A DNA stretch of 64,000 bases, from positions 2,181,864-2,245,863 of the forward strand of contig OY282386.1 of the NCBI GenBank assembly GCA_958295945.1, in the 5' to 3' direction. Below are positions 16,949 through 32,387 of the stretch, in pieces. Position 1 is the stretch's first letter. Every line of letters starts with the position of its first letter. The notes below the pieces were generated by a model. It searched no databases, was not told where the DNA came from, and saw nothing but the letters and a program-made list of their open reading frames with translations. Both the position numbers and the translations under genes were made by a program. Source of the DNA: Candidatus Poribacteria bacterium (GTDB lineage Bacteria > Poribacteria > WGA-4E > WGA-3G).

Positions 16949-19222
16949 TTAAATATTTACCTCTACAATCGTCATTGTATCATTGCCGAAAATGTCTACA
17001 ACCTTGACAGCAATTTTTCTGGAACCCGGTTTGCATTCATGTGCTATGCTCTTTAATTCCAAAGACCGATCCTTCTTGGTGCGAAAACTTTGCCACTCAT
17101 TTTCAAAGACATACTCGCCTGTCCACTGTTCTTTCCACGCCTCTGTATCTGTGTCCTGCACACGGATAATCTCGCGTTTACTCTCAAATTCAAAATCAAC
17201 AGACCAATAATCTATCCAGTCAGTCCATTCTTTCGTCAAAATATCTTTCGTAACGACCCCCTCAGAATCTTTGCTAACCTTTACAACTTGTCCTTTTTCC
17301 ACGACAATTTTACTGCTTTTGTTCTTTAGTGTTTGTTCAGCACCTGAGATTGAATCTTGTGAATAGAAAACAGAGAAATCGGTCAATTCTACCGTTACTG
17401 TCGCTGGTCTATCATTTTTACCATTTGTAGTATGCGTTTTCACTTCAATGAACGCTACATCATGAAACACAACTTGATTCTGCTCCACTGCGCGTTTGTC
17501 AAATACTTCCGCGGGGATGTATTTCGGTGCAAGGTCAATGCCTTTATCTTTCGCTTCCTGTAACACATTGGGAAACAATCCCATCTCAAACTCAAAACCG
17601 AGAACGTCAACACGGGTAACCTGATGTCTTCTGCATTCAAGGATAATCTCTTCTATGAATAGACGCGTTACTGGTAAATTGACGGGCCCAATTGCGATTA
17701 ACCTGCCCGCTTTTTTACCTGGAAAACTGGCAAAACCTTCAGCCTTTTCGGCAGAATAAGCGCGTAGGATAAGGTCAATAAATGTCTTTTCCTTTTCTTC
17801 TAACTGTTGCTGTTGTTCTAACTCTCGTAGGTTTGGATTGACACCGACATAGTGCTGACGTTCATATTTGCCGAGGTTGAGGATTTCAAAGGCACGGTAG
17901 TCTTCACCCTCCTTTTTAAGTTCACGTTGTACTCCGATCAACCGTTTTCGTGTGGTGTGAATGGCAAACTTGCCGAGGTCTGTGACAATCCACTTGCGTC
18001 CAAGTTTTTCTGCAACGGCAGCAGTAGTCCCTGACCCACAGAAAAAGTCAGCGACAAGGTCACCTTCATTAGAAGATGCTTCTATGATGCGTTCAAGTAA
18101 GGCTTCAGGTTTTTGTGTCGGATAATCAAGAATCTCTGCAGTCGTACCTTGCAAATTTGGAATATCATCCCACAAATTGTTTGCTAACTTTCCTTCATTT
18201 TCACGCTCATTCCAATAAGCTTTTTCCTGAAGAGTATTTCCTTCTAAATAGAGTCTGTTTTCATTTTCCAACGTTTTTAACTTTTCATATTTCATCCGCC
18301 ATCCCTTTTTAGGACATTTCCATGTTTTTCCATTATTATCAATATAATCGTATGTCGTTTCGGGTCCAGGACTAGCAGTTTTTTGCAGTGGATAGAGTCT
18401 ATAATTTCCCCTGCCATCTTCATCATTCCTAGTATACATTGCTTTTGTAGTAGGGGATAAGGGTTTAAAAACTGAGTTTACTATGTATTTATCACTTTTA
18501 GAATACCAAAATATTGTATCTGTGTCCCTAGATAAGTTTCTTGAAATTGTCTTACCACTAGAACTTCTTTGCCAAATAATTTCATTATGAAAATTATCGC
18601 TTCCGAACACTTCATCTAAAACGAGCCTTAAAAAACCAGAAACCCGCCAATCACAATGGGCATAAATACTACCATCTATTGCCATCAAGTCTCGCATCAG
18701 AATCAGCCTCTCGTAAATCATAGCGATGAAAGAGTCCGCACCTTTCCCCCAAGTATCACGGTAGGCAATTTCTTCCAGGATATTCGGGTTTTTGGTAAGC
18801 GTTTCACCACCTATCTCAATATCCATAGAAAAATCCGCACCTACGTCAAAGGGTGGGTCAATATAGATAAGTTTGAGTCCATCTTGTGCCTCAATTTCCT
18901 CGCGCAGTGGTCCGTTCTTGAGTGATGATAGTATCAGTTTGTTATCACCCCAGATTAACTTGTTTGTCCAGCCTTTGCGTTGTCTGCCGCGTTCATCAAA
19001 TAAACCGAGTTGTTCACTGGATTCTGCACGTGGTTCGTCTACGTGTTCAATAGTCTGGAATGGTAGTACGATGTTGCAAACTTCGTTTGTCTTGCCATTC
19101 CAAACGAGTTCTACTTCGCGTTTGTCTTCAAAGAGCAGGAAGCGGTATTTTTCGGGTAGTGGTTTGTCTGCTTCTATGTAGCGGATGATTTCTTGCTGTT
19201 CTGATTCTGTGAGTCGTGGCAT
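16949..19222 (-). CDS. mod: Type III-like R-M modification methyltransferase (beta-class N6-adenine MTase)
   Basis: IYIDPPF motif IV precedes TRD and [19 protein letters not shown] motif I; C-terminal [14 protein letters not shown]. Confidence 0.9.
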
Positions 19223-19298
19223 ATTTTGTCTTTCGTTATTTTTCGTTAATGTTTACCTGTTTTGGGACTTTTTCCGATTTCCACTGCTTTGGTTCTAA

Positions 19299-19889
19299 TT
19301 ACCAAATGTTGGTGAGTCTGTAAGTTGACTCAATATGTATTTTCATGCCGTTGTCAGTAGCCTTAACAAGATTTTTGAAGAATGCCTCAGTGTCTTGAGC
19401 GGTTTTGCTCGTTAGGCGGATGTTTCCACTCGGTGATCGTGTCCAATCGTAAGGTGGCATATCAAAACCGTGCGCGAAACTATGACGAACACGTAAGATC
19501 TCATTCAATCTTGCACGCACCTGAAAACCGTTCATCCTACGTCGACTCCATATCCAATCGTTGATAGGATCATATCCTGTACAGTCTACAAGAAATTTCT
19601 GTGTATTTTCCCAGTTCGGCGTATTAAATCTCCCCGATGCTCTTTCTGCTGCTTGCTGGGCGATCACGTAAACAGGAGATGAATTAGGTATCACATCGTA
19701 GAAGTCCCGCACGAGGTTTTTTATGTATCCGTTCCATACTGCAACATAGGCCGTAAGTGCTGCGTGATAGTAAACCTGTATTTCATCATTGTGCAACATA
19801 GGATGCAACTGCTTATCTGTTGCAGTCCTGCGAAGTGTCTGTATGCGATTTACTGAGGTTGTGTAGGTTGATAATGCTGGTGATGGCAC
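19299..19889 (-). CDS. HEPN-domain protein (putative RNase)
   Basis: All-helical pattern with N-terminal Y.AVW..Y and LNEILRVRHSFAHG RxxxxH motif at 19470-19487; starts 9 bp after the ParA stop. Confidence 0.75.
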   Translation of the reverse strand: MPSPALSTYTTSVNRIQTLRRTATDKQLHPMLHNDEIQVYYHAALTAYVAVWNGYIKNLVRDFYDVIPNSSPVYVIAQQAAERASGRFNTPNWENTQKFLVDCTGYDPINDWIWSRRRMNGFQVRARLNEILRVRHSFAHGFDMPPYDWTRSPSGNIRLTSKTAQDTEAFFKNLVKATDNGMKIHIESTYRLTNIW

Positions 19890-19898
19890 AAGAAACCT

Positions 19899-21002
19899 TT
19901 AGAGACAATTTACAAATTCGGTGAGTGCTTTCCGATACTGATTTAATGGATCGGGATTGAGTTGAACCTGTTTACCGTGAACCATATTTGGTCCGGCTTG
20001 AAGGTCATTCAAAGGTATTCCTTTAAGTGTCATAATAACACAAGCACTGTGATAGTCAGGTATCTCTATAAACCTTTGACTTGGTGAATCTTTCGGTGTT
20101 GCGTAGATTTGACGGTGCTTTTTGTGGAGCTCATCCAACGTGACTTTAATGGACTCATTCACTGCCTTAAAAGCTTTGCTTGCTTTGCGGCCATAGAGGG
20201 TTACACGATTACTAACAAAGGTGTGGAGTTTCGGAACATCTAGTTCTTTCTCCTTCGCTCTATTAGCAAAGTTGATTCTTGCATAAGTATCTATTTTGGG
20301 ATCACTTATACCGTGGCCATAAAGCAGTGCGACGACATTCTCCAAAGCGCGACGCGAACTATCATCTGGTGTAAAAGGAATAATAAGATTTTCGGCTGCA
20401 GCGAGAGCCAATTGGGTGTAGATGGCGAAACTCGGATTACAGTCAATGATAAAAAGTGCATCTCGATTCCCGCTCCGCTTACGTAATGCAGATGTTAAAT
20501 CTTTGATCCAACTGAGGACTTGCTTCCAAGCATCCACTGGGATGGCAAGTTGTGAAGTTTGACGAATTGCTTCCGATAGAATTTCCAGTAGATAGTCACC
20601 GCAAACTAAACGCAAATTTCCTGGAAGTCTTGAGTTAAAGTCCTTAGGGTGACAAAAATACGGAGATACATTTTCAATGACACGGAAAGGAGAATTCAAC
20701 CGTGCTTCAATGTAACCCGCAACTGTAGCACGTGGCGTTTGTCCTATCAGTTTATTTATAACATCATAATTTTTGTGAATTACATTATAATTTTCGTCAT
20801 CGGATACTTCATCGTTATCATCAGAATTAGTTAAAATATCAGAATTCAGAAGTAACATCTCAGATACATTTGCTTGGGGGCAAAGGTCTATAACATAGAC
20901 ATCAGTGTCCGGATATGTGCGTGCATACTCGGTTGCTGCAACAAAACTTAAGAAACTCTTCCCGACCCCTCCTTTGTTGTTCCAGAATGCGTAAGCTGTC
21001 AT
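19899..21002 (-). CDS. ParA/Soj/MinD-family ATPase
   Basis: Deviant Walker A NNKGGVGKS, VIDLCPQAN, IIDCNPS Walker B. Confidence 0.9.
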   Translation of the reverse strand: MTAYAFWNNKGGVGKSFLSFVAATEYARTYPDTDVYVIDLCPQANVSEMLLLNSDILTNSDDNDEVSDDENYNVIHKNYDVINKLIGQTPRATVAGYIEARLNSPFRVIENVSPYFCHPKDFNSRLPGNLRLVCGDYLLEILSEAIRQTSQLAIPVDAWKQVLSWIKDLTSALRKRSGNRDALFIIDCNPSFAIYTQLALAAAENLIIPFTPDDSSRRALENVVALLYGHGISDPKIDTYARINFANRAKEKELDVPKLHTFVSNRVTLYGRKASKAFKAVNESIKVTLDELHKKHRQIYATPKDSPSQRFIEIPDYHSACVIMTLKGIPLNDLQAGPNMVHGKQVQLNPDPLNQYRKALTEFVNCL

Positions 21003-21137
21003 AATATAACCCCCTCAAAAAAATGAAAACACATAATAAATCTCGTTTAAAATTCTAACACAAATTGGTATGAATGTCAAAAGCTTGTTGCTTTTTGCTT
21101 TTGCAACGCTACATTATCATTGACAAGACTTACACAT

Positions 21138-21218
21138 TCCCCCTTGATAAGGGGGTTAGGGGTTAAAAAGTCGTTATTCAGTGATTTGCCCCCTAAATTC
21201 CCCTTATCGGAGGGACTT
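21138..21218. repeat. REP-like inverted doublet (CCCCCTTGATAAGGGGG family)
   Basis: tcccccttgataagggggttagggg 21138-21162 and ccccctaaattccccttatcggagggactt 21189-21218. Confidence 0.7.
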
Positions 21219-21248
21219 TAAGATAAGAGGAAATGCGTCCATCCTCCG

Positions 21249-21626
21249 TTATTTCTCGTTATTGTCTTCCTGTTCTGGTTCGTCTATTTCAAGGACTTGT
21301 ACGACAGGATCTCCAATATTTACAATGGCTCTGCTCAAAGATAATAGAGATTTACTAAATGAACCTTTGCCTCCTGATGACAAAGGTTTGTCTTTTGAGA
21401 ATAAAACAGTTATATGTTCTTGAACATCATCAACGTATAAATAAACAATAGGCCATTCAACCTTACCTATTTCTTTAGACGTATCAGGATCTCTTACAGG
21501 AATAATTTCTGAGATATAAAACTCCATACCGTAAGTTACACCATCTACCTCACCTATATTTATTACGAGTGCCCTTTCGTTCAAAATTCGTGCTACTTTA
21601 CCGCGAATTGGTTTAGTTTGTGTCAC
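21249..21626 (-). CDS. Small beta-rich hypothetical protein (FlgT C-terminal-like pattern); probable GTG start at 21626
   Basis: GKVARILNERALVINIGEVDGVTYGMEF..VRDPDTSKEIG; SD GGAGGG before GTG; overlaps the upstream gene stop. The ORF track starts at 21656. Confidence 0.7.
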   Translation of the reverse strand: MTQTKPIRGKVARILNERALVINIGEVDGVTYGMEFYISEIIPVRDPDTSKEIGKVEWPIVYLYVDDVQEHITVLFSKDKPLSSGGKGSFSKSLLSLSRAIVNIGDPVVQVLEIDEPEQEDNNEK

Positions 21627-22089
21627 TATCAATCCCTCCTTGTATTTTAGATTCAAGTTGTTGTTTTAACTCTTCTACATCTTCTGGAACAATGTCTCTC
21701 CAATCTTCCAATGCATCATCTGCTGCGTTTAGTTGCTCAGTAACAATTGCGTCAAGTTTGGCAACTAATACTTTATAGTCTTCTGGAGATTCCAAATTGT
21801 TTATTGATTGTATCTCAGTTGAAGCACGCGAAAGACTCTCGTAGAGTGAAACAAGACGTCTAAAAGCAGATCGTGCATGTGGTTTGATTATTTCTTTTGC
21901 TACTTCTTTAGCAGACTGTCGACCAAAAATAAAAGAACCTGTAAGTCCCGCGGTAAGGACAAAAACTTGCCAAATTGTACTTTCTACAGTGGTTAAAACT
22001 CTTGTAGTTGTTGTGTAAATGACTAAAACTGATACACCCAAAGAGATTAAGATTAGAAAACTTGCAAGAACCCAATTTAAGTTTTTCAT
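21613..22089 (-). CDS. Two-TM membrane protein with cytoplasmic helical domain, hypothetical
   Basis: Two hydrophobic helices (LNWVLASFLILISLGVSVLVIY; IWQVFVLTAGLTGSFIFG) then amphipathic helices. Confidence 0.75.
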   Translation of the reverse strand: MKNLNWVLASFLILISLGVSVLVIYTTTTRVLTTVESTIWQVFVLTAGLTGSFIFGRQSAKEVAKEIIKPHARSAFRRLVSLYESLSRASTEIQSINNLESPEDYKVLVAKLDAIVTEQLNAADDALEDWRDIVPEDVEELKQQLESKIQGGIDSDTN

Positions 22090-22157
22090 AATTTACTATT
22101 GTATCAAAAAATGTGGTGTTTGTCAAAAAATGAGGATGTTTATTGAGAGCTTTATCA

Positions 22158-24845
22158 CTACGGTTTGTATTCTGTAAAACCGTCAAGCAATTGCTGAAAA
22201 GTTGTCGGTGAATATGTTCTGAAACTCTCCTCGTCAACAAAAACAAAATCATAGTCAACATCGGTTGAGATTTCGTTAACATCCTCACACCATTGCGATA
22301 AACGTTCCATCTTGAGCGGTACATCTAAATCTTCTAATCCCTTAGTTTCGACTACAACTACACTGCCATCCATCAATTTGACGATAAAATCGGGATAGTA
22401 ATTAGAAATATCACCATCAGCATTGACATAATCAAGTTTAAACTGCACGCCATAATAGTTTTTTGTATAGGATACAACGTCCGGGCACGCCTCCAGAAAT
22501 TTAGCGAATTCCAATTCCAAATGACTATCACCTGTGATGATGTTGAATACAGATTTTGACGGTACTAAATGGTCTTGGTCTTTGACTATAAAGGGTCTTG
22601 TACTGCTGATTTTAGAAGTTTCGCTTAATTCTGCATTTCCTTTGTCCTGGACTGTAAGGTCATTGATTGCACGTTTGAATGTTTCAATAATCGTTTTTGT
22701 GGCGCGGAGTTCCGCGAGATTTTTTATGGTGATGGGATCGTCTAATGCTACCGTTTCACCAAAGAGATGGTGCTGGACAAATTCTTTTACCTTTGCATAC
22801 AACACATCATAACCGCCGACAAGTCGGAGTTCTTTCATTAGAGTTTGGGCAAAATAACCGAGAGCGTTTCGGTAGTCTTCTGTACCTGGACTTTCCAATA
22901 CTGTCGTATGTGCGACTTCGCTTGTCGTCATATATCGGAATTCAATTTCTCGTATCTCGGTTTCGCCAAACTGTTCATACTCAACAGGTTCAAAGTCAAG
23001 GCGTGTAACGTCCAAGTCTGCGAGATTGTTGTACTCACGGTAAACACGGCGCGTCAAAATGGGAATTTCAATATCAAGCGCGCCGATGTCTTTGTCCACA
23101 TTTTCCTTGTCAACCTCAATAACAAGAGGTGCTATGGGTTTTGTGCCTTCTCCCATTTCTTTGCGTTCTAATTCGACCCCTTCCTCTTGAATCTTTTCAA
23201 CAAAATCCATGAAGGCATCTGTACCGATGACACTAACAGACTCATCTACTGAATTATTATACATTCGCCTGAGGCCGCGTCCTAAGGTCTGTTCTGGTAG
23301 AATGTTGGCTTTTGCAGAATATGCACGGAGCCCAACAATGGTTGTAACGTTCTTGACATCCCACCCCTCTTTAAGCATTAAAACGGAAACAATTGCCTTA
23401 TATGGATTTTTGTCTATCGCTAAATCGATCGCATTCGCTTGCTTTCGAAGCTCTTCAAGTTCTTCTTTCTTTTTTCCAGATGTAGCCTCAGAGATTTCAC
23501 CATTATTCTTTGTATGAATCACCAGTACAGCATCTTTTAAGTCTTGGTAATGGTTTTCAAGATAAGTTGCTACCTCATCGCAGTTTTTCGTATCATCGGT
23601 CATCACAAACAGAATGGCTTTCTTACCCAACTTTTCGTGTCGTTCGAACGCTTTGCGCCACTCAACCACACCCAGGTGGAGATAGTCCGCATACTTCTCT
23701 GTAAACTTCACACTCTGTTTTTCCTCAAGTTTCTTCCTGCTTTCATCATCTGGAAGAATAGGGTGTTTCACGACGTTTTGTGAAATAGCCTCTACAAGCG
23801 GATAATCCGCGACTGTCTGGACAAAAATTGCACCGTTATTATGCTTTGGGGTTGCAGTTACATCAACTTGTAATGATAACTCGCTGTCTTTTTGCACAAG
23901 GCGATTGCGGATATCCTCAATTGACTTGAACCATGCCATCTTTGGATCATGGATATGATGTGCTTCATCGTTAAGTACCATCAATTCGTCAATATCTCGG
24001 ACGATGTCCCCGAGGTCCACTTTGGAATCTGTTGTTGCACCAGTCGGTTTTTTACCTAAGTAGTAATCCATACTGTTATCATCATCGGGGGATGGTGGTG
24101 TTTGGTCACTGGAATAGACGCGGTGAATATTCGTGAGAAAGATGTTACCTGTAGGCCGGACAGTTCGCACTTCATCTTGTACATGCAAGGTGAGTTGAAA
24201 ATCATTTCTCCAATTCTGACCTTCATAACCGTTGTCTGGTAACACTGGGTCATCAAAAAAGATGCTTAATCCTTTGAAATCATGATAAAGCCTGTCAAGG
24301 ACAATGATATTAGGTGCAATGACAAGAAAATTTCGAGAGAGTTCAGAATCTGTTTCATACAACTTGTGAAAGAAACTCCATGCGATAACAAGACTCATCA
24401 CCTTAGTTTTACCTGTGCCTGTTGCCATTTTTATGACGAATCGTTTCCAATTTTCGTCAAACATTCCTCTTGAAACAGCACCTGAACTGTCAAACTTTAT
24501 CAAATCAACTTCATCTTGGACCTTGACGACATCATAGAGGTAGACAATAGTTTCCAGTGCTTCGCGCTGTGCGAAATAGTACTGAAATTCTGTTGTTGTA
24601 CCATCAGATTGTTCTCTCAAGTGCGGTTCCTTGAACCACCAATTGAGTAGTGCTTTGCTTGTTTCAGATGCACCTCTATAGTTGTCATCACGCCAAGTCT
24701 TAACTGCATCACGTATCTTTTGTACGAGTGGTGGGAGTAACGTCCCCATGCCTGTCAAGGGCATCTGTGCGACATCAGGTGTCCAGCGCACAGAAGGGTC
24801 AATGATTTCGTGTGGTGATTCAGGAAATTCTGGGTGTAATGGCAT
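22158..24845 (-). CDS. res: Type III-like restriction subunit (SF2 DEAH helicase + C-terminal PD-(D/E)xK nuclease)
   Basis: FAQREALET, KMATGTGKT, LNDEAHH, MLKEGWDV, EQTLGRGLRRM, YYPDFIV..VVETKG. Confidence 0.9.
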   Translation of the reverse strand: MPLHPEFPESPHEIIDPSVRWTPDVAQMPLTGMGTLLPPLVQKIRDAVKTWRDDNYRGASETSKALLNWWFKEPHLREQSDGTTTEFQYYFAQREALETIVYLYDVVKVQDEVDLIKFDSSGAVSRGMFDENWKRFVIKMATGTGKTKVMSLVIAWSFFHKLYETDSELSRNFLVIAPNIIVLDRLYHDFKGLSIFFDDPVLPDNGYEGQNWRNDFQLTLHVQDEVRTVRPTGNIFLTNIHRVYSSDQTPPSPDDDNSMDYYLGKKPTGATTDSKVDLGDIVRDIDELMVLNDEAHHIHDPKMAWFKSIEDIRNRLVQKDSELSLQVDVTATPKHNNGAIFVQTVADYPLVEAISQNVVKHPILPDDESRKKLEEKQSVKFTEKYADYLHLGVVEWRKAFERHEKLGKKAILFVMTDDTKNCDEVATYLENHYQDLKDAVLVIHTKNNGEISEATSGKKKEELEELRKQANAIDLAIDKNPYKAIVSVLMLKEGWDVKNVTTIVGLRAYSAKANILPEQTLGRGLRRMYNNSVDESVSVIGTDAFMDFVEKIQEEGVELERKEMGEGTKPIAPLVIEVDKENVDKDIGALDIEIPILTRRVYREYNNLADLDVTRLDFEPVEYEQFGETEIREIEFRYMTTSEVAHTTVLESPGTEDYRNALGYFAQTLMKELRLVGGYDVLYAKVKEFVQHHLFGETVALDDPITIKNLAELRATKTIIETFKRAINDLTVQDKGNAELSETSKISSTRPFIVKDQDHLVPSKSVFNIITGDSHLELEFAKFLEACPDVVSYTKNYYGVQFKLDYVNADGDISNYYPDFIVKLMDGSVVVVETKGLEDLDVPLKMERLSQWCEDVNEISTDVDYDFVFVDEESFRTYSPTTFQQLLDGFTEYKP

Positions 24846-24876: not shown

Positions 24877-25062
24877 TCACTCATTCCATTCCTTGAAAAC
24901 AACACCGCATCTTGGACACTGTGTTGACAAACCCGTTTGTCGCTGCCCACAGTTCGGACACCATGTTCTGATTCCTTGTTTACGCCGATACATCGTTAAT
25001 ATGATCATCCAAACTACTACAAGAATGATGGCAATGAGTGGAAAAGCAATTTGATTATACAT
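24877..25062 (-). CDS. Small single-TM protein with C-terminal zinc ribbon
   Basis: Hydrophobic N-terminus then CPNC-x10-CPRC; 31 bp upstream of res. Confidence 0.6.
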   Translation of the reverse strand: MYNQIAFPLIAIILVVVWMIILTMYRRKQGIRTWCPNCGQRQTGLSTQCPRCGVVFKEWNE

Positions 25063-26669: not shown

Positions 26670-29600
26670 CTAAATTATTTCACGGAGGAAACGAGCAGTA
26701 TGTGATTCTTTCACTTCAGCCACCTCTTCAGGTGTGCCCATCCCTACAATGTATCCTCCAGCATCACTTCCCTCAGGTCCCAAATCAATAACCCAATCAG
26801 CAGATTTAATGACATCCAGATTATGTTCAACTGCAACGATGGTATTACCTGCATCAACAAGTTTATTTAGGACATTGAGAAGTTTCTGTACATCATCAAA
26901 GTGTAGCCCGGTTGTGGGTTCATCCATGATATAAAGGGTCTTTCCAGTCTGTCTTCTTGCAAGTTCCTTCGCAAGTTTAACACGTTGTGCTTCTCCACCA
27001 GAAAGTGTAGTCGCCGCTTGACCCAATTGGATATAATCCAAACCCACATCTGCTAAAGTTTGAAGTGTGCGTTTAATCCGGTTGATGTTACTAAACAGTT
27101 CAAGTGCCTCTAGTACTGTCATCTGTAACACTTCGGCTATGTTTTTGCCTTTGTATTTCACTTCAAGCGTTTCAGCATTATATCCTGTGCTATCACAGTT
27201 TTCACAAGGTATCCATACATCGGGTAGGAAATGCATCTCAACACGATTGTAACGTTGTCCGTCACATACTTCACATTGCCCATAAGATAGGTTGAAACTG
27301 AAACGTCCACGATTAAACCCACGAAGTTTTGCATCAGGTAATTCAGCATACATTTCTCGGATTTTTGTAAATAAGTCGGTATAGGTTGCTGGATTAGATC
27401 GTGGTGTTTCACCTATCGGTTTCTGATCAATATGTATCATACGTTCAACAGAGCTTACACCTTGTATTTTGTCATAGTTCTCAGTTACATTGTTTTTTCC
27501 AGTGTTCTTTTCATTTTCCCGATTTGATTTCCTGGATTCCATCGCAGGTCGTAATGTGCCTTCAATCAGTGAACTCTTTCCACACCCAGAAACACCCGTC
27601 ACACAGGTAAGCGTTCCTATTGGAATGCTTATGTCAATGTTTTTAAGATTGTTAGTTCTTGCACCGAACAGTTTAAGCCATTTTCCAGAACCTTTCCGAC
27701 GAACCGCAGGAACAGGGATTTGCATTTCATTTGATAAGTATGACTGTGTTAATCCTTTTTTGGCTGTAAGATTTGCATCTCTTGCAGATTCATCTCCATT
27801 ATCTGATTGAATGGTAGTTTCTATAGAAATTGGTTCTGAGTTGGCAAATGCACTTGGTGTTCCAACCGCAACTATTTCTCCTCCCTGTTTTCCTGCATTT
27901 GGACCGAAATCAATAACATGATCTGAAGACATAATCGTATCTCTGTCGTGTTCAACAACCAGAACACTATTACCGATGTCGCGCAGATCTTTCATTGCAT
28001 ATATCAACCGTTCTTGATCGCGCGGGTGCAGACCTATACTCGGTTCATCAAGGATATAAGTAACCCCAGTAAGTCCTGTTCCAAGTTGGCTTGCGAGACG
28101 AATTCTACGGATCTCTCCACCTGAAAGCGTTGGGGCAGTTCTATCTAAACCGAGGTATCCAAGACCGATATCTTCTAAAAAACTCAGTCGTAACTGAATT
28201 TGCCTTAAAAGTTGAGCTTCAAATTCAGGTGATGTATGCGCATGAAGTCTTGGGTGAGTTGCCCTTGAAGTAGAAACGTCTTGCACTTGCTTCTTTGCCG
28301 TTTCTGCTTCCTTAGCACCTGCAGTTGTTGTTAGATGTTTCTCAATCGTTACAATCTGTCCACTGAAAAACGACGAAATCTCAGCGATTGACAAAGCCAT
28401 CAATTCTGCAATTGTTTTGTCAGTATATCTGACATTTCTTGGAAATTCGTCTAATCTTGTCCCATCACATTCATCACAGATTGATTGATCATCACTTAAT
28501 TCTCTACCAATACCATCACAAGTGCTGCATGCACCTAATCTATTGTTGAATGAGAAGTGACGAGGTGTTAGTTGCGGAAAATTCCGTCCACATTTTGAAC
28601 ACATAGCGTGTTCACTGAAGAAATGTCTTTCGGCTAATTCTTTATTATCATTTGGTTCTATGATAACAAAACCTTCACTTTCAATGAGTGCTAATTCTAC
28701 TGCCTCAGTGAAACGACTTGTCTCATCTTCAACAAGCTTCAAACGATCAATGACCAAGAATACTTCATGTCGACGACGTTTTCTGATATCAGGTGCTTCA
28801 TCAAGCCTATGGATTTCACCATCAATCTGTACGCGAGCAAATCCTGTTCGTTGCAGTCTTTGAAATGCATCGGCATAATCCTCGTTTCCCTTTAGACCTG
28901 GTGTCCGTTCTGCACCAATAACCACCTCAGTATCATTTTCGATAGATTTGAAATTCGTGAGTGGTGAAAGTACATCTACTCTTTTGCCTTTCAGATTCTT
29001 GAAAGAACGTTCTACAATCTGCTGTGCTGTTTGTGGACGAACTACCACTTCACATGATGGACAGTACGGTTGACCCCATCTGGCATATAGTGTTCGAAGA
29101 CCGTCATGGATTTCAGTTATCGTTGCAACGGTAGAACGCGGGTTTTGACTTGGACTTGAGTGAGTAATAGCAATTGCAGGTGACAATCCTTCAATCTTAG
29201 AGACTTTCGGTTTGTCCATACTTCCAATAAATTGACGTGCATAAGTGCTAAGTGTCTCAATGTATCTTCGTTGTCCTTCCGCGTAAATTGTATCAAGGGC
29301 AAGAGATGTTTTGCCAGATCCACTAACACCTGTAAACGCTGTCAACTTCTGATGCGGTATTTCAATATTAATGTTCTTAAGGTTGTTCTCACCTGCACCT
29401 TGAACCAAAATGGATTTACGCATTTCGGATTGTTTTTGATCAAGAAGATCTTGTGCGATATCACCGTTTTCTTTAACTGAAGGTTCAGATTTCACCGATT
29501 TCCATAGATCATATTCCCCATGTAATGCTTTTCCAGTATACGATTCGGATATATCTTTCACCTCTTCAGGCGTGCCAACTGCAATAATCTGCCCACCATC

Positions 29601-32387
29601 AATTCCACCCTCAGGACCTAAATCAATAAGATAATCAGCAGAATTAATCACTTCAAGATTGTGTTCCACCACAACAACAGTATTACCTTCATCAACTAAT
29701 CTATGAAGAATAGTTAACAACTTATTGACATCTTCAAAGTGTAGACCTGTTGTCGGTTCATCAAGGATATAAAGAGTCTTACCGGTACTGCGTTTTGAAA
29801 GTTCTTTTGAGAGTTTAATTCTCTGCGCTTCACCACCGGAAAGAGTTGGAGCCGGTTGTCCAAGTTTGATGTAATCCAAACCTACGTCGTGAAGTAATTG
29901 AAGTCCTCTTGCAATTTTAGGGTGATCCGCAAAATGTTCAAGTGCAGATTCAATATCCATCTCCAATACATCGGATATATTCTTGCCTTTGTATTTTATA
30001 GTGAGAGTTTCATTGTTATACCGTTTCCCATTACAAACATCACATTCAACCCACACATCGGCAAGTATGCCCATGTCAACTTTTTTCGCACCGTTGCCTG
30101 TACAAGCTTCGCATCTACCACCCGGAACGTTGAAACTAAAGCGTCCCGGTTTATATCCGCGCAGTTTAGCGTCGGGTAAGTTTGTATAAAATGCTCTGAT
30201 TGAATCAAAAACTTTTGTATAGGTAGCAGGATTGGAGCGCGGAGTGCGACCTATCGGTGACATATCTATGTTGATAATTTTGTCTATGACATCTGAGACA
30301 GGGACAGGTTCATCATCAATAATCCCTTGAATCTTTTCATAATCACCTGGCACAGTCTTTGCTTTCATTAGGTCTCTTGCAAGTGCTTTGTATAGAATAT
30401 CATGAATAAGAGAACTTTTCCCTGATCCACTAACTCCTGTTACGCAACAGAGCGTGCCAATCGGTATCCTTGGATTGATACTTTTTAGATTGTTTTGTTG
30501 TGCTTTACATATTTGCAGCCACTTATCTCCATTTTTACGACGTTCTTCTGGATGAACAATCTCTTTATCACCACGCAAATATTGTGCAGTCAGCGAGTCT
30601 GTCTCCTCAATCAATTGATCGGGTGTTCCAATACCGGTAATCTCTCCACCTCTAATCCCTGCACCTGGACCAAAATCAACAATCAGATCCGCCACCAACA
30701 TTGTCGCTTCATCATGTTCAACTACAATGACTGTATTGCCTTGATTCCTTAGATTGATAAGGGTTTTCAGCAAACCCGCATGGTCACGAGGGTGTAGACC
30801 AATGCTCGGTTCATCAAGGACATACGTAACATCGCGTAAACCCGCACCAACTTGACTGGCAAGTCGTATCCTTTGTGCTTCGCCACCCGATAGTGTTGGT
30901 GCAGAACGTGATAACGTGAGGTAACCCAATCCTACATCCATAAGAAAACCGAGTCGAGTGCGTATCTCTTTCAAGAGTTCAGATGCTATCACATTCTGCC
31001 TTTCAGATAGTTTCAGCCCATTGAAGAAGGATGTCGCATCCTGAATTGACATATTCAAAACTTCTGTAATATCTACATCAGTAAGTTTAACTCCTGTTAC
31101 AACTTGATTCAGTCGTGATCCATTGCATTCTCTACATGGTGCTTTAACGAAAAAATCCGGCAGGTATGATTCCCCTTCTTCTTTGACATGCAACGATAGG
31201 AATTGCTTTTCATGGGATGGGATCAATCCTTCAAATCTTCCTCGTATACGTCTACTTCTTCTGCGGCCTTTTGAAGGTTCACGAAATGAAAGGACTTTAT
31301 CACCCGTACCATATAGTATTGCATGTTGTTGATCAGGAGATAGGTCTTTCCACGGTGAGTTGATTTTGAATTTAAGATGTGATGCTAATGTCTGTAAGAC
31401 CATTTTCGCCTGATGATCAGGATTTTCACACAAAATTATTGCCCCATCTAAAATGGAAAGTGATTCATCCACTACTATTAATTTGGGGGAAATTGCCATC
31501 TGCACACCCAAACCTCTACAATGTTGACACATTCCGTAAGGACTATTAAATGAGAAATGACGGGGTTCAGGAACATCGTAACTTATTTGACAATCTACAC
31601 AGGCATACTGTCTGCTAAATAGGAGATCTTCACCTTCTGATCCTTTGCTTGAAGTAGAACTATCGGAAGAAACAACATTGACAATTAGACTATCATCTCC
31701 AAGTGAGAGTGCTGTTTCAACTGCTTCTGCGACACGACTATCAATACCATCCTTAATAATTATTCTATCAACTACAAGATCAATGTTATGCCGTTGATTT
31801 GGGTTGAGTGCGACATTCGAACTGATCTCGTGAACTTCACCGTCAATTCTTGCACGCACGAATCCCATCTTACGTGCATCTGAAAACTCTTTGCGATACT
31901 CACCCCGTCTTCCTCTGACTATCGGAGCCAATATCATAAGACGAGTGCGCGGCGGGAAAGTAAGGATATGTGATACGATGTCAGCTATCGTTTGCGATCC
32001 GACTAACTGACCACATTCAAGACAATGGAATTGTCCTGCTCGTGCAAACAGCACTCTAAGATAATCGTATATTTCAGTTACGGTAGCAACCGTTGATCGT
32101 GGATTGTGTCCTGACGATCCTTGATCAATCGCTATTGAGGGAGATAAACCGACTATCTTGTCGACTTCAGCTTTTCCGAGTTGTCCTAAAAACTGACGTG
32201 CATACGCAGATAGTGATTCAATGTAACGACGTTGTCCTTCTGCATATAATGTATCAATTGCAAGTGACGATTTCCCTGAACCACTAACACCTGTGAAGAC
32301 AATAAGTTTATCCTTAGGTAGGCTGATATCTATATTTTTTAGATTGTGTTCTCTTGCACCGTGTATTTCAATTGACGCTCCTGCCAT
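26670..32387 (-). CDS. uvrA: Excinuclease ABC subunit A, internally duplicated (four ABC ATPase domains, 1905 aa)
   Basis: Four Walker A motifs ([32 protein letters not shown]), four LSGGE and DEP(S/T) motifs, two PRSNPATYT, multiple CxxC Zn fingers. Confidence 0.97.

What the first reader, a model, noticed from the sequence alone, without database searches (positions are those of the whole stretch)
16949..24845. Type III-like R-M locus split by two inserted cassettes (nested defence island)
Order on the minus strand: res - [2TM + beta-rich protein] - REP doublet - [ParA + HEPN] - mod. res and mod are normally adjacent; here ~2.9 kb of co-oriented cargo sits between them. Established: R-M loci host backup abortive-infection modules such as PrrC, a HEPN anticodon nuclease inside a Type I locus. 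Inference: a hotspot carrying two candidate accessory defence modules that may guard the R-M complex.
Basis: partly seen in the sequence, partly recalled or inferred. Interest (0 to 1): 0.75.

Follow-up and report, generated by a model that had tools for sequence, protein, structure and literature searches.

The report
Restriction locus carrying two nested defence-like cassettes
A Type III-like restriction-modification gene pair in a sponge-symbiont (Poribacteria) genome has two self-contained, self-promoted two-gene cassettes inserted between its genes, and related genomes show this gap is a general docking site for small defence or toxin-type modules, a known theme seen here in a new host system with two untested modules.

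Summary
On the minus strand lie res (24845-22158), a membrane protein (22089-21613), a small all-beta protein (21626-21249), a REP-like hairpin, a ParA-like ATPase (21002-19899), a HEPN RNase (19889-19299) and mod (19222-16949).

res and mod are an intact Type III-like pair with conserved helicase, nuclease and methylase motifs and a hypervariable target-recognition region. Each cassette has its own near-consensus promoter. Both cassettes also occur alone, between housekeeping genes, in other genomes.

In 71 relatives sampled through res, 41 have 0.4-3.8 kb between mod and res. The cargo includes validated systems (IetAS, PD-T4-4) and PADLOC candidates. In Poribacteria the gap holds shuffled combinations of ParA, HEPN, the membrane/beta pair, an Mrr-like nuclease and a multi-TM protein. 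The closest syntenic relative lacks the membrane/beta cassette.

So the "hotspot with nested cargo" reading is supported. "res and mod are normally adjacent" is only half true. The PrrC-like "guard" idea is untested, and the cassettes' autonomy weakens it.

The ParA+HEPN pairing was predicted as a toxin-antitoxin pair in 2013, and embedding is known for Type I, BREX, DISARM and Hma. Neither cassette matches PADLOC models. Verdict: a new variant of a known kind, of moderate interest.

The parts
22158..24845 (-). res: Type III-like restriction subunit (895 aa), an SF2 helicase-ATPase with a C-terminal PD-(D/E)xK nuclease
   Evidence: ResIII PF04851 8e-17. PADLOC REase_III 7e-21. NCBIfam BPTD_3080 restriction endonuclease 9e-81, but below its cut-off. 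Walker A (KMATGxGKT), DEAH (NDEAHH), QTLGRGLR and the PDF...ETKG nuclease motif are at least 95% conserved in 104 homologs. NCBI names relatives 'type III restriction endonuclease subunit R'.
22098..22126 (-). Promoter of the membrane/beta cassette (TTGACA-17-TACAAT, with TG extension)
   Evidence: One of the two best sigma-70-type matches (11 of 12) in 16.8-25.2 kb. A related TGATACAnT element lies 8-9 nt before the ATG of this gene in other loci, and the full promoter is present in L009 and L031.
21613..22089 (-). tm2: small membrane protein (158 aa) with one confident and one probable N-terminal TM helix plus a conserved helical cytoplasmic domain
   Evidence: No Pfam, NCBIfam, PADLOC or PHROG match. 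Hydropathy. 447 representative clusters in 1.84 billion proteins. Always followed by the beta gene.
21249..21626 (-). beta: small all-beta protein (125 aa; corrected GTG start), translationally coupled to tm2 by a 14-nt overlap
   Evidence: Exact match to P0121. AlphaFold pLDDT 81.8, all strands. Weak fold similarity to FlgT (3w1e, E 1.3e-4, TM 0.55) and to the beta-barrel crown of F1-ATPase subunits. Invariant IRGK...DPDT...GDPVVQ motifs.
21125..21245 (-). REP-like long imperfect hairpin that closes the tm2/beta cassette; a likely transcript end or boundary element
   Evidence: -48.5 kcal/mol, z = -4.4. GATAAGGGG arms at 21146-21154 and 21200-21208. A 52-nt copy at 90.6% identity in L001. Related motif in the same spacer of L007, L022 and L064. 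No Rfam match.
21052..21080 (-). Promoter of the ParA-HEPN cassette, probably also driving mod (TTGACA-17-TAGAAT, with TG extension)
   Evidence: 11 of 12 match. Promoter and 5'UTR are conserved upstream of ParA in L001 and in many R-M-embedded and stand-alone Poribacteria copies.
19899..21002 (-). ParA-like deviant Walker-A ATPase (367 aa); predicted regulator, antitoxin or sensor
   Evidence: AAA_31 4.6e-12, CbiA 6e-5. PHROG_164 1e-31. K10-G-G-V-G-K15, D39 and D187 are invariant in 30 homologs. 3,983 homolog clusters, most of those listed at 70-92% identity.
19299..19889 (-). HEPN RNase (196 aa, RiboL-PSP-HEPN family); predicted toxin or effector
   Evidence: PF18735 7.5e-10, 39.5 bits against a cut-off of 28.4. 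R135-x4-H140 is invariant in 48 homologs. Starts 9 nt after the ParA stop.
16949..19222 (-). mod: Type III-like beta-class N6-adenine DNA methyltransferase (757 aa) with a central hypervariable target-recognition region (about aa 200-360; DNA 18129-18645)
   Evidence: N6_N4_Mtase 2e-44. PADLOC MTase_III 2e-113. EcoP15I Mod 4zcf 1.2e-16. DPPF and FxGSG are conserved, while the TRD is 1-39% conserved in 75 homologs. The TRD segment diverges even in a strain that is 96% identical overall. There is no terminator or strong promoter in the 76-nt HEPN-mod spacer.

Best explanation
The locus is an intact Type III-like restriction-modification pair. Res is a helicase-nuclease and Mod is an N6-adenine methylase that carries the specificity domain.

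The inter-gene gap is used as a landing site by small, autonomous conflict modules. Two are present here, each with its own promoter.

Cassette 1 (tm2 plus beta) encodes a small membrane protein whose gene overlaps that of a soluble beta-barrel protein, and it ends in a REP-like hairpin. I infer a two-component abortive-infection or toxin-antitoxin-type module in which the membrane protein is the effector and the beta-barrel protein its partner or regulator.

Cassette 2 encodes a ParA-type ATPase with an intact deviant Walker A, followed 9 nt later by a HEPN RNase with an invariant Rx4H site. I infer that the ATPase holds the RNase inactive, or senses a trigger through its nucleotide-dependent dimer or DNA-bound state. 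When that control is lost, the RNase cuts cellular or phage RNA and stops growth.

mod appears to be read from the ParA promoter.

Shown: the gene identities, motif conservation, promoters, autonomy of both cassettes and variability of the gap. Inferred: toxicity, the roles of each partner, and anti-phage function.
For: R-M identity and integrity.

Own promoters: the two best promoter matches in the region sit exactly upstream of tm2 and of ParA. The ParA promoter and 5'UTR are conserved in embedded and stand-alone copies.

Indel: tm2-beta-REP is absent from the syntenic L001 locus and present in 96%-identical strains.

Autonomy:
- ParA-HEPN lies between housekeeping genes in Poribacteria, Caldilineaceae, cyanobacteria, Gammaproteobacteria, Micromonospora, Alphaproteobacteria and a Ralstonia megaplasmid.
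- The tm2-beta pair lies alone between housekeeping genes.

Hotspot:
- 41 of 71 res-anchored relatives have a gap of at least 300 nt between mod and res. 28 of these carry genes with a Pfam match.
- Cargo includes IetA/IetS (3e-143 and 0), a PD-T4-4_A/PDC-M47A-like ATPase (1e-157 and 5e-199) and PDC-S22 (3e-134).
- Poribacteria gaps carry shuffled sets of ParA, HEPN, tm2-beta, an Mrr_cat nuclease (2e-17), a 250-aa multi-TM protein, a CPBP protease and TnpB.

Catalytic motifs are invariant.

Prior prediction of ParA/Soj+HEPN as a toxin-antitoxin pair: PMC3710099. The 'guilt-by-embedding' principle: bioRxiv 10.1101/2024.01.29.577857.
Against: - There is no experimental evidence for either cassette.
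- Neither matches any PADLOC v2 model, and no paper characterising them was found.
- tm2 and beta have no informative homology. The FlgT-like fold match is weak (TM about 0.5) and says nothing about function.
- The ParA structure model failed (pLDDT 45.7), so nothing is known about its roughly 100-aa extra regions.
- The same ParA family occurs alone, without HEPN, on small enterobacterial plasmids and in a prophage immunity region. The ATPase can therefore act without a HEPN partner, and a simple antitoxin role may be too narrow.
- Several 'cargo' ORFs in GC-rich relatives are probably spurious, so the gapped count is an upper bound.
Confidence: 0.6

Rival explanations
1. ParA-centred modular system. 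The ParA-like ATPase is the constant sensor or regulator, and the genes that follow it (HEPN RNase, tm2+beta, Mrr-type nuclease, multi-TM protein) are interchangeable effectors of one family. Here tm2-beta would be a second effector of the same ParA rather than an independent cassette.
For: HEPN is replaced directly after ParA by tm2-beta in L010, L031, L034, L035, L040 and L064, and by an Mrr-like nuclease in L062. tm2 or Mrr genes also accompany stand-alone ParA-HEPN in L003, L016 and L009. ParA is more conserved than HEPN (mean pairwise identity 0.76 against 0.68). A different ParA-like ATPase pairs with a Schlafen/AlbA_2 protein in the same gap in L127 and L129. [quoted passage not shown]
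Against: tm2-beta has its own promoter here. It occurs with no ParA in L164 and in non-Poribacteria genomes. ParA occurs alone on plasmids and in a phage. Sharing a hotspot would also produce these adjacencies by chance.
Confidence: 0.25
2. Guard model. The cargo monitors the Res/Mod complex, as PrrC does with EcoprrI, and fires when a phage inhibits restriction.
For: ParA-HEPN directly follows res in 31 of the 64 ParA-anchored loci, counting only full-length res matches. mod appears to depend on the ParA promoter. Established knowledge: PrrC is a HEPN anticodon nuclease embedded in a Type I locus (PMC3710099).
Against: ParA-HEPN is common without any R-M genes, including at the same lpdA/pfkB chromosomal site where other genomes have the full res...mod island. 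ParA and res divergence are uncorrelated (r = 0.08, against res-mod 0.54). R-M-embedded and stand-alone ParA copies interleave in the tree. 80 res relatives from other environments lack it entirely. The architecture differs from PrrC: a SIMIBI ATPase on a separate polypeptide, not an ABC ATPase fused to HEPN.
Confidence: 0.12
3. Purely selfish addiction modules. Both cassettes are toxin-antitoxin-type elements that persist by post-segregational killing and stabilise the island, with no anti-phage role.
For: ParA-HEPN persists at the lpdA/pfkB site where res and mod are absent. Decayed partners occur next to intact cassettes: mod is fragmented in L159 and ParA is frameshifted in L161. Both are compact two-gene modules with overlapping or nearly abutting genes.
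Against: The slot is shared with experimentally validated defence systems. Addiction and defence are not mutually exclusive.
Confidence: 0.2
4. Non-conflict functions. ParA acts in DNA or protein positioning, and tm2/beta act in an envelope process (the FlgT-like fold).
For: ParA family membership. Weak FlgT_C resemblance of beta.
Against: There is no ParB or centromere partner; the partner is a HEPN RNase with an intact catalytic site. Distribution is patchy, mobile and hotspot-linked. No flagellar or envelope genes lie nearby.
Confidence: 0.05

Closest known systems
Type III restriction-modification systems (EcoP15I/EcoP1I type)
   Same: Mod is a beta-class N6-adenine methylase with a central variable TRD, and its best solved relative is EcoP15I Mod. 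Res combines an SF2 helicase ATPase with a C-terminal PD-(D/E)xK nuclease. Most relatives elsewhere have the canonical mod-then-res order with a gap of about 15 nt.
   Different: Res is far from EcoP15I Res: no PDB sequence hit at E 0.01, and NCBIfam PRK15483 scores only 22.8 bits against a cut-off of 564. It is nearest to the BPTD_3080 family but below that cut-off too. The order here is res...mod, with 2.9 kb of cargo between. Mod has a conserved C-terminal extension of about 300 aa. There are no simple-sequence phase-variation tracts.
Defence genes embedded in multi-gene immune systems ('guilt-by-embedding', Payne et al. 2024 bioRxiv; PDC candidates in PADLOC)
   Same: Extra co-oriented genes are nested between components of a known system. 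The same slot in relatives holds validated or candidate systems (IetAS, PD-T4-4-like, PDC-S22).
   Different: That study analysed Hma, BREX, DISARM and Type I R-M, not Type III. ParA, HEPN, tm2 and beta match none of the PADLOC v2 models, including the PDC candidate models.
ParA/Soj-like ATPase + HEPN dyad predicted as a toxin-antitoxin system (Anantharaman et al. 2013)
   Same: A two-gene unit of a SIMIBI-type ParA/Soj ATPase followed by a HEPN protein with an Rx4-6H motif. It is proposed that the ATPase acts as antitoxin and the RNase as toxin.
   Different: The HEPN here belongs to the RiboL-PSP-HEPN family (PF18735). It hits the MAE_28990/MAE_18760-like model only weakly (E 0.0021, below cut-off). 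The pair remains experimentally untested as far as my searches show.
PrrC / RloC anticodon nucleases in Type I R-M loci
   Same: A HEPN RNase associated with an NTPase and nested inside a restriction-modification locus.
   Different: PrrC is a single polypeptide (ABC ATPase fused to HEPN) in a Type I locus and depends on the R-M complex for latency. Here the ATPase is a separate ParA-type protein, the host system is Type III-like, and the pair is often found with no R-M genes.
MNT-HEPN (HepT/MntA) toxin-antitoxin modules
   Same: A compact two-gene module in which a nucleotide-using enzyme is paired with a HEPN RNase. MNT genes occupy the same mod/res gap in L105 and L108.
   Different: The partner is a P-loop ParA-type ATPase, not a nucleotidyltransferase, so the neutralisation chemistry (AMPylation in HepT/MntA) cannot be assumed.

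Membership tests
Type III restriction-modification | Mod subunit: beta-class (motif IV before motif I) N6-adenine methyltransferase with a central target-recognition domain | tested here: met
   N6_N4_Mtase 2e-44. PADLOC MTase_III 2e-113. EcoP15I Mod 1.2e-16. DPPF at about aa 122 and FCGSG at about aa 393, with a hypervariable segment between them.
Type III restriction-modification | Res subunit: SF2 helicase-type ATPase plus PD-(D/E)xK endonuclease domain | tested here: met
   ResIII 8e-17. Walker A, DEAH and motif VI, plus a C-terminal PDF...ETKG motif, are at least 95% conserved in 104 homologs. There is a weak TnsA-like nuclease hit, E 0.0047.
Type III restriction-modification | Res reaches the curated equivalog threshold of a named Type III or BPTD_3080 endonuclease model | tested here: not met
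   NF012027: 22.8 bits against 564. NF046055: 272 bits against 800. The locus is therefore 'Type III-like', a distinct subfamily.
Type III restriction-modification | mod and res form one adjacent operon (mod first) | tested here: not met
   Here the order is res first with 2.9 kb of cargo. The canonical adjacent mod-res form is seen in 28 of 71 relatives.
Type III restriction-modification | ATP-dependent cleavage needing two inversely oriented asymmetric sites, with hemimethylation of one strand | not testable with these tools
   Needs methylome sequencing and cleavage assays.
ParA/Soj + HEPN toxin-antitoxin dyad (Anantharaman 2013) | ParA/Soj-type ATPase with deviant Walker A next to a co-directional HEPN gene with Rx4-6H | tested here: met
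   NKGGVGKS and RHSFAH are both invariant across homologs, and the spacer is 9 nt.
ParA/Soj + HEPN toxin-antitoxin dyad (Anantharaman 2013) | HEPN belongs to the MAE_18760 family | tested here: not met
   PF18737 E 0.0021, 18.7 bits against a cut-off of 26.8. The best match is PF18735 RiboL-PSP-HEPN, at 39.5 bits.
ParA/Soj + HEPN toxin-antitoxin dyad (Anantharaman 2013) | HEPN is toxic and is neutralised by the ATPase | not testable with these tools
   Needs expression experiments.
PrrC-type guard of an R-M system | ABC-ATPase domain fused to the HEPN anticodon nuclease | tested here: not met
   The ATPase is a separate ParA/SIMIBI protein, and HEPN is a 196-aa stand-alone protein.
PrrC-type guard of an R-M system | Obligate genomic association with the R-M genes it guards | tested here: not met
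   At least 25 ParA-HEPN loci have no res or mod. This includes loci at the same chromosomal site where other genomes have the full island.
Embedded defence candidates (guilt-by-embedding) | Located between the genes of a known defence system, in a slot that holds known defence systems in homologous loci | tested here: met
   IetAS, a PD-T4-4_A-like ATPase, PDC-S22 and CapP/RmrA-like genes lie in the mod/res gap of relatives.
Embedded defence candidates (guilt-by-embedding) | Match to an existing PADLOC system or PDC model | tested here: not met
   No hit at E 0.01 for tm2, beta, ParA or HEPN.
ParABS partition system | ParA accompanied by a ParB centromere-binding protein | tested here: not met
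   The neighbours are HEPN, tm2, beta, res and mod, and no ParB-family hit was found among them.

The most novel reading that the evidence does not exclude
The highly conserved ParA-like ATPase is the hub of a previously unrecognised modular immune family. One nucleotide-switch sensor would be coupled to interchangeable effectors: a HEPN RNase, a membrane protein with a beta-barrel partner, an Mrr-type DNase, a multi-TM protein, and Schlafen/AlbA_2 in a sister branch. Solo versions would act on small plasmids and in prophage immunity regions. Poribacteria would keep this family docked inside a Type III-like R-M operon so that mod is transcribed from the cassette's promoter.
Probability: 0.25. 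Interest if true: 0.75.

Novelty: new variant of a known kind. Interest (0 to 1): 0.55.

Why it matters
Nesting of backup defences inside restriction systems has been documented for Type I R-M, BREX, DISARM and Hma. This locus and its relatives show the same logic in a widespread Type III-like family.

That gives a cheap way to find new candidates: read whatever sits between mod and res. It singles out two untested modules, ParA+HEPN and the membrane/beta-barrel pair. Both are compact, self-promoted and easy to clone.

ParA-type ATPases are not among established defence regulators. A demonstration that one controls a HEPN RNase, or several alternative effectors, would add a new type of switch to bacterial immunity.

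The data also give a natural series (full island, R-M lost, cargo swapped) in uncultured sponge symbionts, in which defence gene turnover is otherwise hard to study.

Tried and rejected
- AlphaFold model of ParA from a 25-sequence alignment: pLDDT 45.7, unusable. No fold search was run on it.
- Rfam scan of 16-26 kb at E 0.1: nothing.
- Tandem-repeat scan for phase-variation tracts in mod and res: nothing relevant.
- PDB sequence search with HEPN and res: no meaningful hits.
- Exact-sequence look-up of the window's ParA: not on record.
- Literature searches for an experimental ParA+HEPN defence system: only the 2013 prediction was found.
- Viral-contig scans with beta and HEPN: 2 weak matches and 1 marginal match, so no evidence of phage carriage.
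- My interim conclusion that ParA-HEPN is a constant core of the Poribacteria locus. It came from ParA-anchored sampling, and I rejected it after res-anchored sampling found res-tm2-beta-mod without ParA or HEPN (L164) and a frameshifted ParA (L161).
- The idea that loss of the cassette promoter would make the R-M system suicidal. Type III Res needs Mod for target recognition (established knowledge), so loss of mod expression is not expected to be lethal.
- A partition role for ParA: no ParB, and the partner is an RNase.

Full report
**What is there.**
- All genes of the finding lie on the minus strand: res 24845-22158, a small membrane protein (tm2) 22089-21613, a small beta protein, an intergenic hairpin, a ParA-like ATPase 21002-19899, a HEPN protein 19889-19299 and mod 19222-16949.
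- Pfam, PADLOC and NCBIfam confirm the identities:
  - res: ResIII, 8e-17; REase_III, 7e-21.
  - mod: N6_N4_Mtase, 2e-44; MTase_III, 2e-113.
  - ParA-like: AAA_31, 4.6e-12.
  - HEPN: HEPN_RiboL-PSP, 7.5e-10, above Pfam's cut-off.
- tm2 and beta match nothing in Pfam, NCBIfam, PADLOC or PHROGs.
- The beta gene really starts at GTG 21626, giving 125 aa. It has a GGAGGG ribosome-binding site and a 14-nt overlap with tm2. It is identical to an independently called protein, P0121.
- The window comes from a Candidatus Poribacteria genome, a sponge symbiont, as shown by close relatives.

**The R-M pair is real and intact.**
- Mod's best solved relative is EcoP15I Mod (1.2e-16).
- Across 75 Mod homologs, DPPF and FxGSG are conserved, while residues of about 200-360 (the target-recognition region) are almost unconserved.
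- The TRD DNA segment, 18645-18129, is the only part of the locus that diverges in a strain that is otherwise 96% identical.
- Across 104 Res homologs, Walker A, DEAH, motif VI and a C-terminal PD...ExK nuclease motif are at least 95% conserved.
- Res is below the curated thresholds of both NCBIfam endonuclease models and has no PDB sequence relative. 'Type III-like subfamily' is therefore the accurate label.
- NCBI annotates relatives as Type III subunit R.

**Two self-contained cassettes.**
- The two best sigma-70-type promoter matches in 16.8-25.2 kb (11 of 12, both with TG extension) lie immediately upstream of tm2 (22126-22098) and of ParA (21080-21052).
- The tm2-beta cassette ends in a long imperfect hairpin (-48.5 kcal/mol, z = -4.4) made of two inverted G-rich units.
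- A 52-nt copy of this element lies elsewhere in the related L001 locus, and similar motifs occur in the same spacer in other Poribacteria. It has no Rfam match.
- Alignment with the closest syntenic relative, L001, which shares the dnaJ-like and phyH flanks, is informative. In L001 the res stop is followed directly by the conserved ParA promoter region. The roughly 1.0 kb promoter-tm2-beta-hairpin unit is therefore an indel.
- Strains at 96% identity (L145, L146) have the window's order. They also carry an AriAB-like ABC ATPase after mod that the window lacks.
- The 76-nt HEPN-mod spacer has no terminator or good promoter, so mod is probably read from the ParA promoter (inference).

**Both cassettes are autonomous.**
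- A genome scan with ParA gave 64 loci.
- ParA is followed by HEPN in most of them. In at least 25 there are no res or mod genes nearby. These cover Poribacteria, Caldilineaceae, cyanobacteria, Entotheonella, Thiomargarita, Micromonospora and Alphaproteobacteria.
- There the neighbours are housekeeping or unrelated genes. A Ralstonia megaplasmid copy sits next to an IS.
- The conserved promoter and 5'UTR travel with ParA in both embedded and stand-alone copies.
- tm2-beta pairs, again with overlapping genes, also occur alone between housekeeping genes in other bacteria. A lone beta gene was also seen.
- In a neighbour-joining tree (no bootstrap support computed), R-M-embedded and stand-alone ParA copies interleave. 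Pairwise divergence of ParA is uncorrelated with that of res (r = 0.08), whereas res and mod co-vary (r = 0.54).
- The stand-alone ParA-HEPN of several Poribacteria sits between lpdA and pfkB. At exactly that site other genomes have res-ParA-HEPN-mod (L160) or res-tm2-beta-mod (L164).

**The gap is a hotspot.**
- Sampling through res in metagenomes gave 80 loci at 60-73% identity.
- Among the 71 loci with both genes visible, 28 have canonical adjacent mod-res, 2 have adjacent res-mod, 27 have mod-gap-res and 14 have res-gap-mod.
- Some gap ORFs in GC-rich loci are probably spurious. Even so, 28 loci carry gap genes with a Pfam match:
  - KilA-N and Bro-N proteins.
  - DUF4325 with PIN, with or without an HATPase-like protein.
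  - Schlafen/AlbA_2 with HATPase_c_4.
  - AAA_15/AAA_21 ATPases.
  - An M78 peptidase with DUF4411.
  - AAA with an S8 peptidase.
  - MNT nucleotidyltransferases, an AAA_16 ATPase, and DUF3800.
  - In two loci, an unrelated ParA-like ATPase next to a Schlafen/AlbA_2 protein.
- PADLOC identifies several of these as validated or candidate defence systems: IetA and IetS (3e-143 and 0), PD-T4-4_A/PDC-M47A (1e-157 and 5e-199), PDC-S22 (3e-134), and CapP/RmrA-like.
- In Poribacteria the gap holds shuffled sets:
  - ParA-HEPN alone.
  - ParA-HEPN-tm2-beta.
  - ParA-HEPN with a zinc-ribbon and Mrr_cat nuclease.
  - ParA-HEPN with a 250-aa multi-TM protein.
  - ParA-tm2-beta with no HEPN.
  - ParA-Mrr.
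  - tm2-beta alone.
  - Decayed versions, with a frameshifted ParA in L161 and a fragmented mod in L159.
- The window's arrangement, with tm2-beta upstream of ParA, was seen only in its own near-identical strains.

**Mechanism.**
- ParA has an invariant deviant Walker A (K10...K15) and invariant D39 and D187. HEPN has an invariant R135-x4-H140. Both are therefore predicted to be active.
- The pairing of a ParA/Soj ATPase with a HEPN protein was proposed in 2013 as a toxin-antitoxin system with the ATPase as antitoxin (PMC3710099).
- The HEPN family here is RiboL-PSP-HEPN, not the MAE_18760 family named in that proposal.
- I therefore favour an ATPase-gated RNase of the toxin-antitoxin or abortive-infection type.
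- beta folds as a small beta-barrel (pLDDT 81.8) with weak FlgT and F1-crown similarity.
- tm2 has one confident and one probable TM helix and a conserved cytoplasmic helical domain.
- Their overlapping genes and hotspot association suggest a membrane-acting effector with a soluble partner. This is inference only.

**Comparison with what is known.**
- Embedding of defence genes in immune operons is established. PrrC sits in Type I loci, and 'guilt-by-embedding' has been described for Hma, BREX, DISARM and Type I R-M. That survey did not cover Type III.
- None of the four cargo proteins matches any PADLOC v2 model.
- No experimental paper on a ParA+HEPN system was found.
- The PrrC-like guard idea fails two defining tests, fusion architecture and obligate R-M association, although a looser functional link cannot be excluded.
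- An alternative that the data do not exclude is a ParA-centred family with swappable effectors.

**Verdict.**
- The 'nested hotspot' interpretation is supported and extended.
- The 'guard' inference is unsupported.
- This is a new variant of a known theme with two cloneable, untested candidates. Interest is moderate.

Noticed in passing
window 26670-32387 (minus strand): A 1,905-aa ORF that looks like two complete UvrA proteins fused in tandem, with two sets of UvrA_DNA-bind and UvrA_inter domains. This is about twice the usual UvrA length. The same 1,905-aa gene is called in the related contig L145.
   Followed up: no
window 18129-18645 (mod, about aa 193-365): The target-recognition region of mod is swapped between strains that are otherwise about 96% identical (window against L145). 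It also breaks at the same point in L001. This implies recent exchange of methylation and restriction specificity.
   Followed up: partly
L145 10587-12176; L001 14462-16060; absent from the window between mod (16949) and phyH (16899): A 529-aa ABC ATPase (AAA_15/AAA_21; PADLOC AriAB 1.8e-33) overlaps the mod stop in close relatives and in 12 other Poribacteria loci (14 loci in all). It is deleted or absent in the window. A second ATPase family (PD-T4-4_A/PDC-M47A-like, 480 aa) flanks many of the same islands.
   Followed up: partly
L155 (E. coli plasmid pSUH-5, 1269-2327); L156 (Pseudomonas phage phi297, 3959-5011): The same ParA family (37-38% identity over the full length) occurs alone, without HEPN, in 160 plasmid records. 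Many of these are ColE1-like enterobacterial plasmids of about 5 kb. In phage phi297 it lies directly next to the CI-like repressor, in the immunity region. These positions are typical of exclusion or defence genes rather than partition genes.
   Followed up: partly
L160, L164 compared with L003, L016, L017, L020, L021, L023: The lpdA/pfkB-ahcY junction is a second Poribacteria island site. Its content ranges from full res-ParA-HEPN-mod-DUF4325, through res-tm2-beta-mod-ATPase-DUF4325, to bare ParA-HEPN.
   Followed up: partly
L158-L164, downstream of mod; L080, L085, L095, L097, L116 in the mod/res gap: A small DUF4325 (STAS-like) gene, often with a PIN protein and an HATPase-like protein, recurs next to this R-M family. 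It lies after mod in Poribacteria and inside the gap elsewhere. It looks like another uncharacterised three-gene module.
   Followed up: no
window 24877-25062 (minus strand): A 61-aa ORF with an N-terminal hydrophobic helix and a CPNC...CPRC zinc-ribbon motif ends 31 nt before the res start. It is conserved in L001 (68% identity). It has no Pfam match, and its relation to res expression is unknown.
   Followed up: no
window 22090-22126 and upstream of tm2 in L009, L010, L019, L025, L031: The -10-like element of the tm2 promoter (TGATACAnT) lies only 8-9 nt before the ATG, which would give a leaderless or nearly leaderless transcript. There is also a 19-nt direct repeat at 22104-22141.
   Followed up: no
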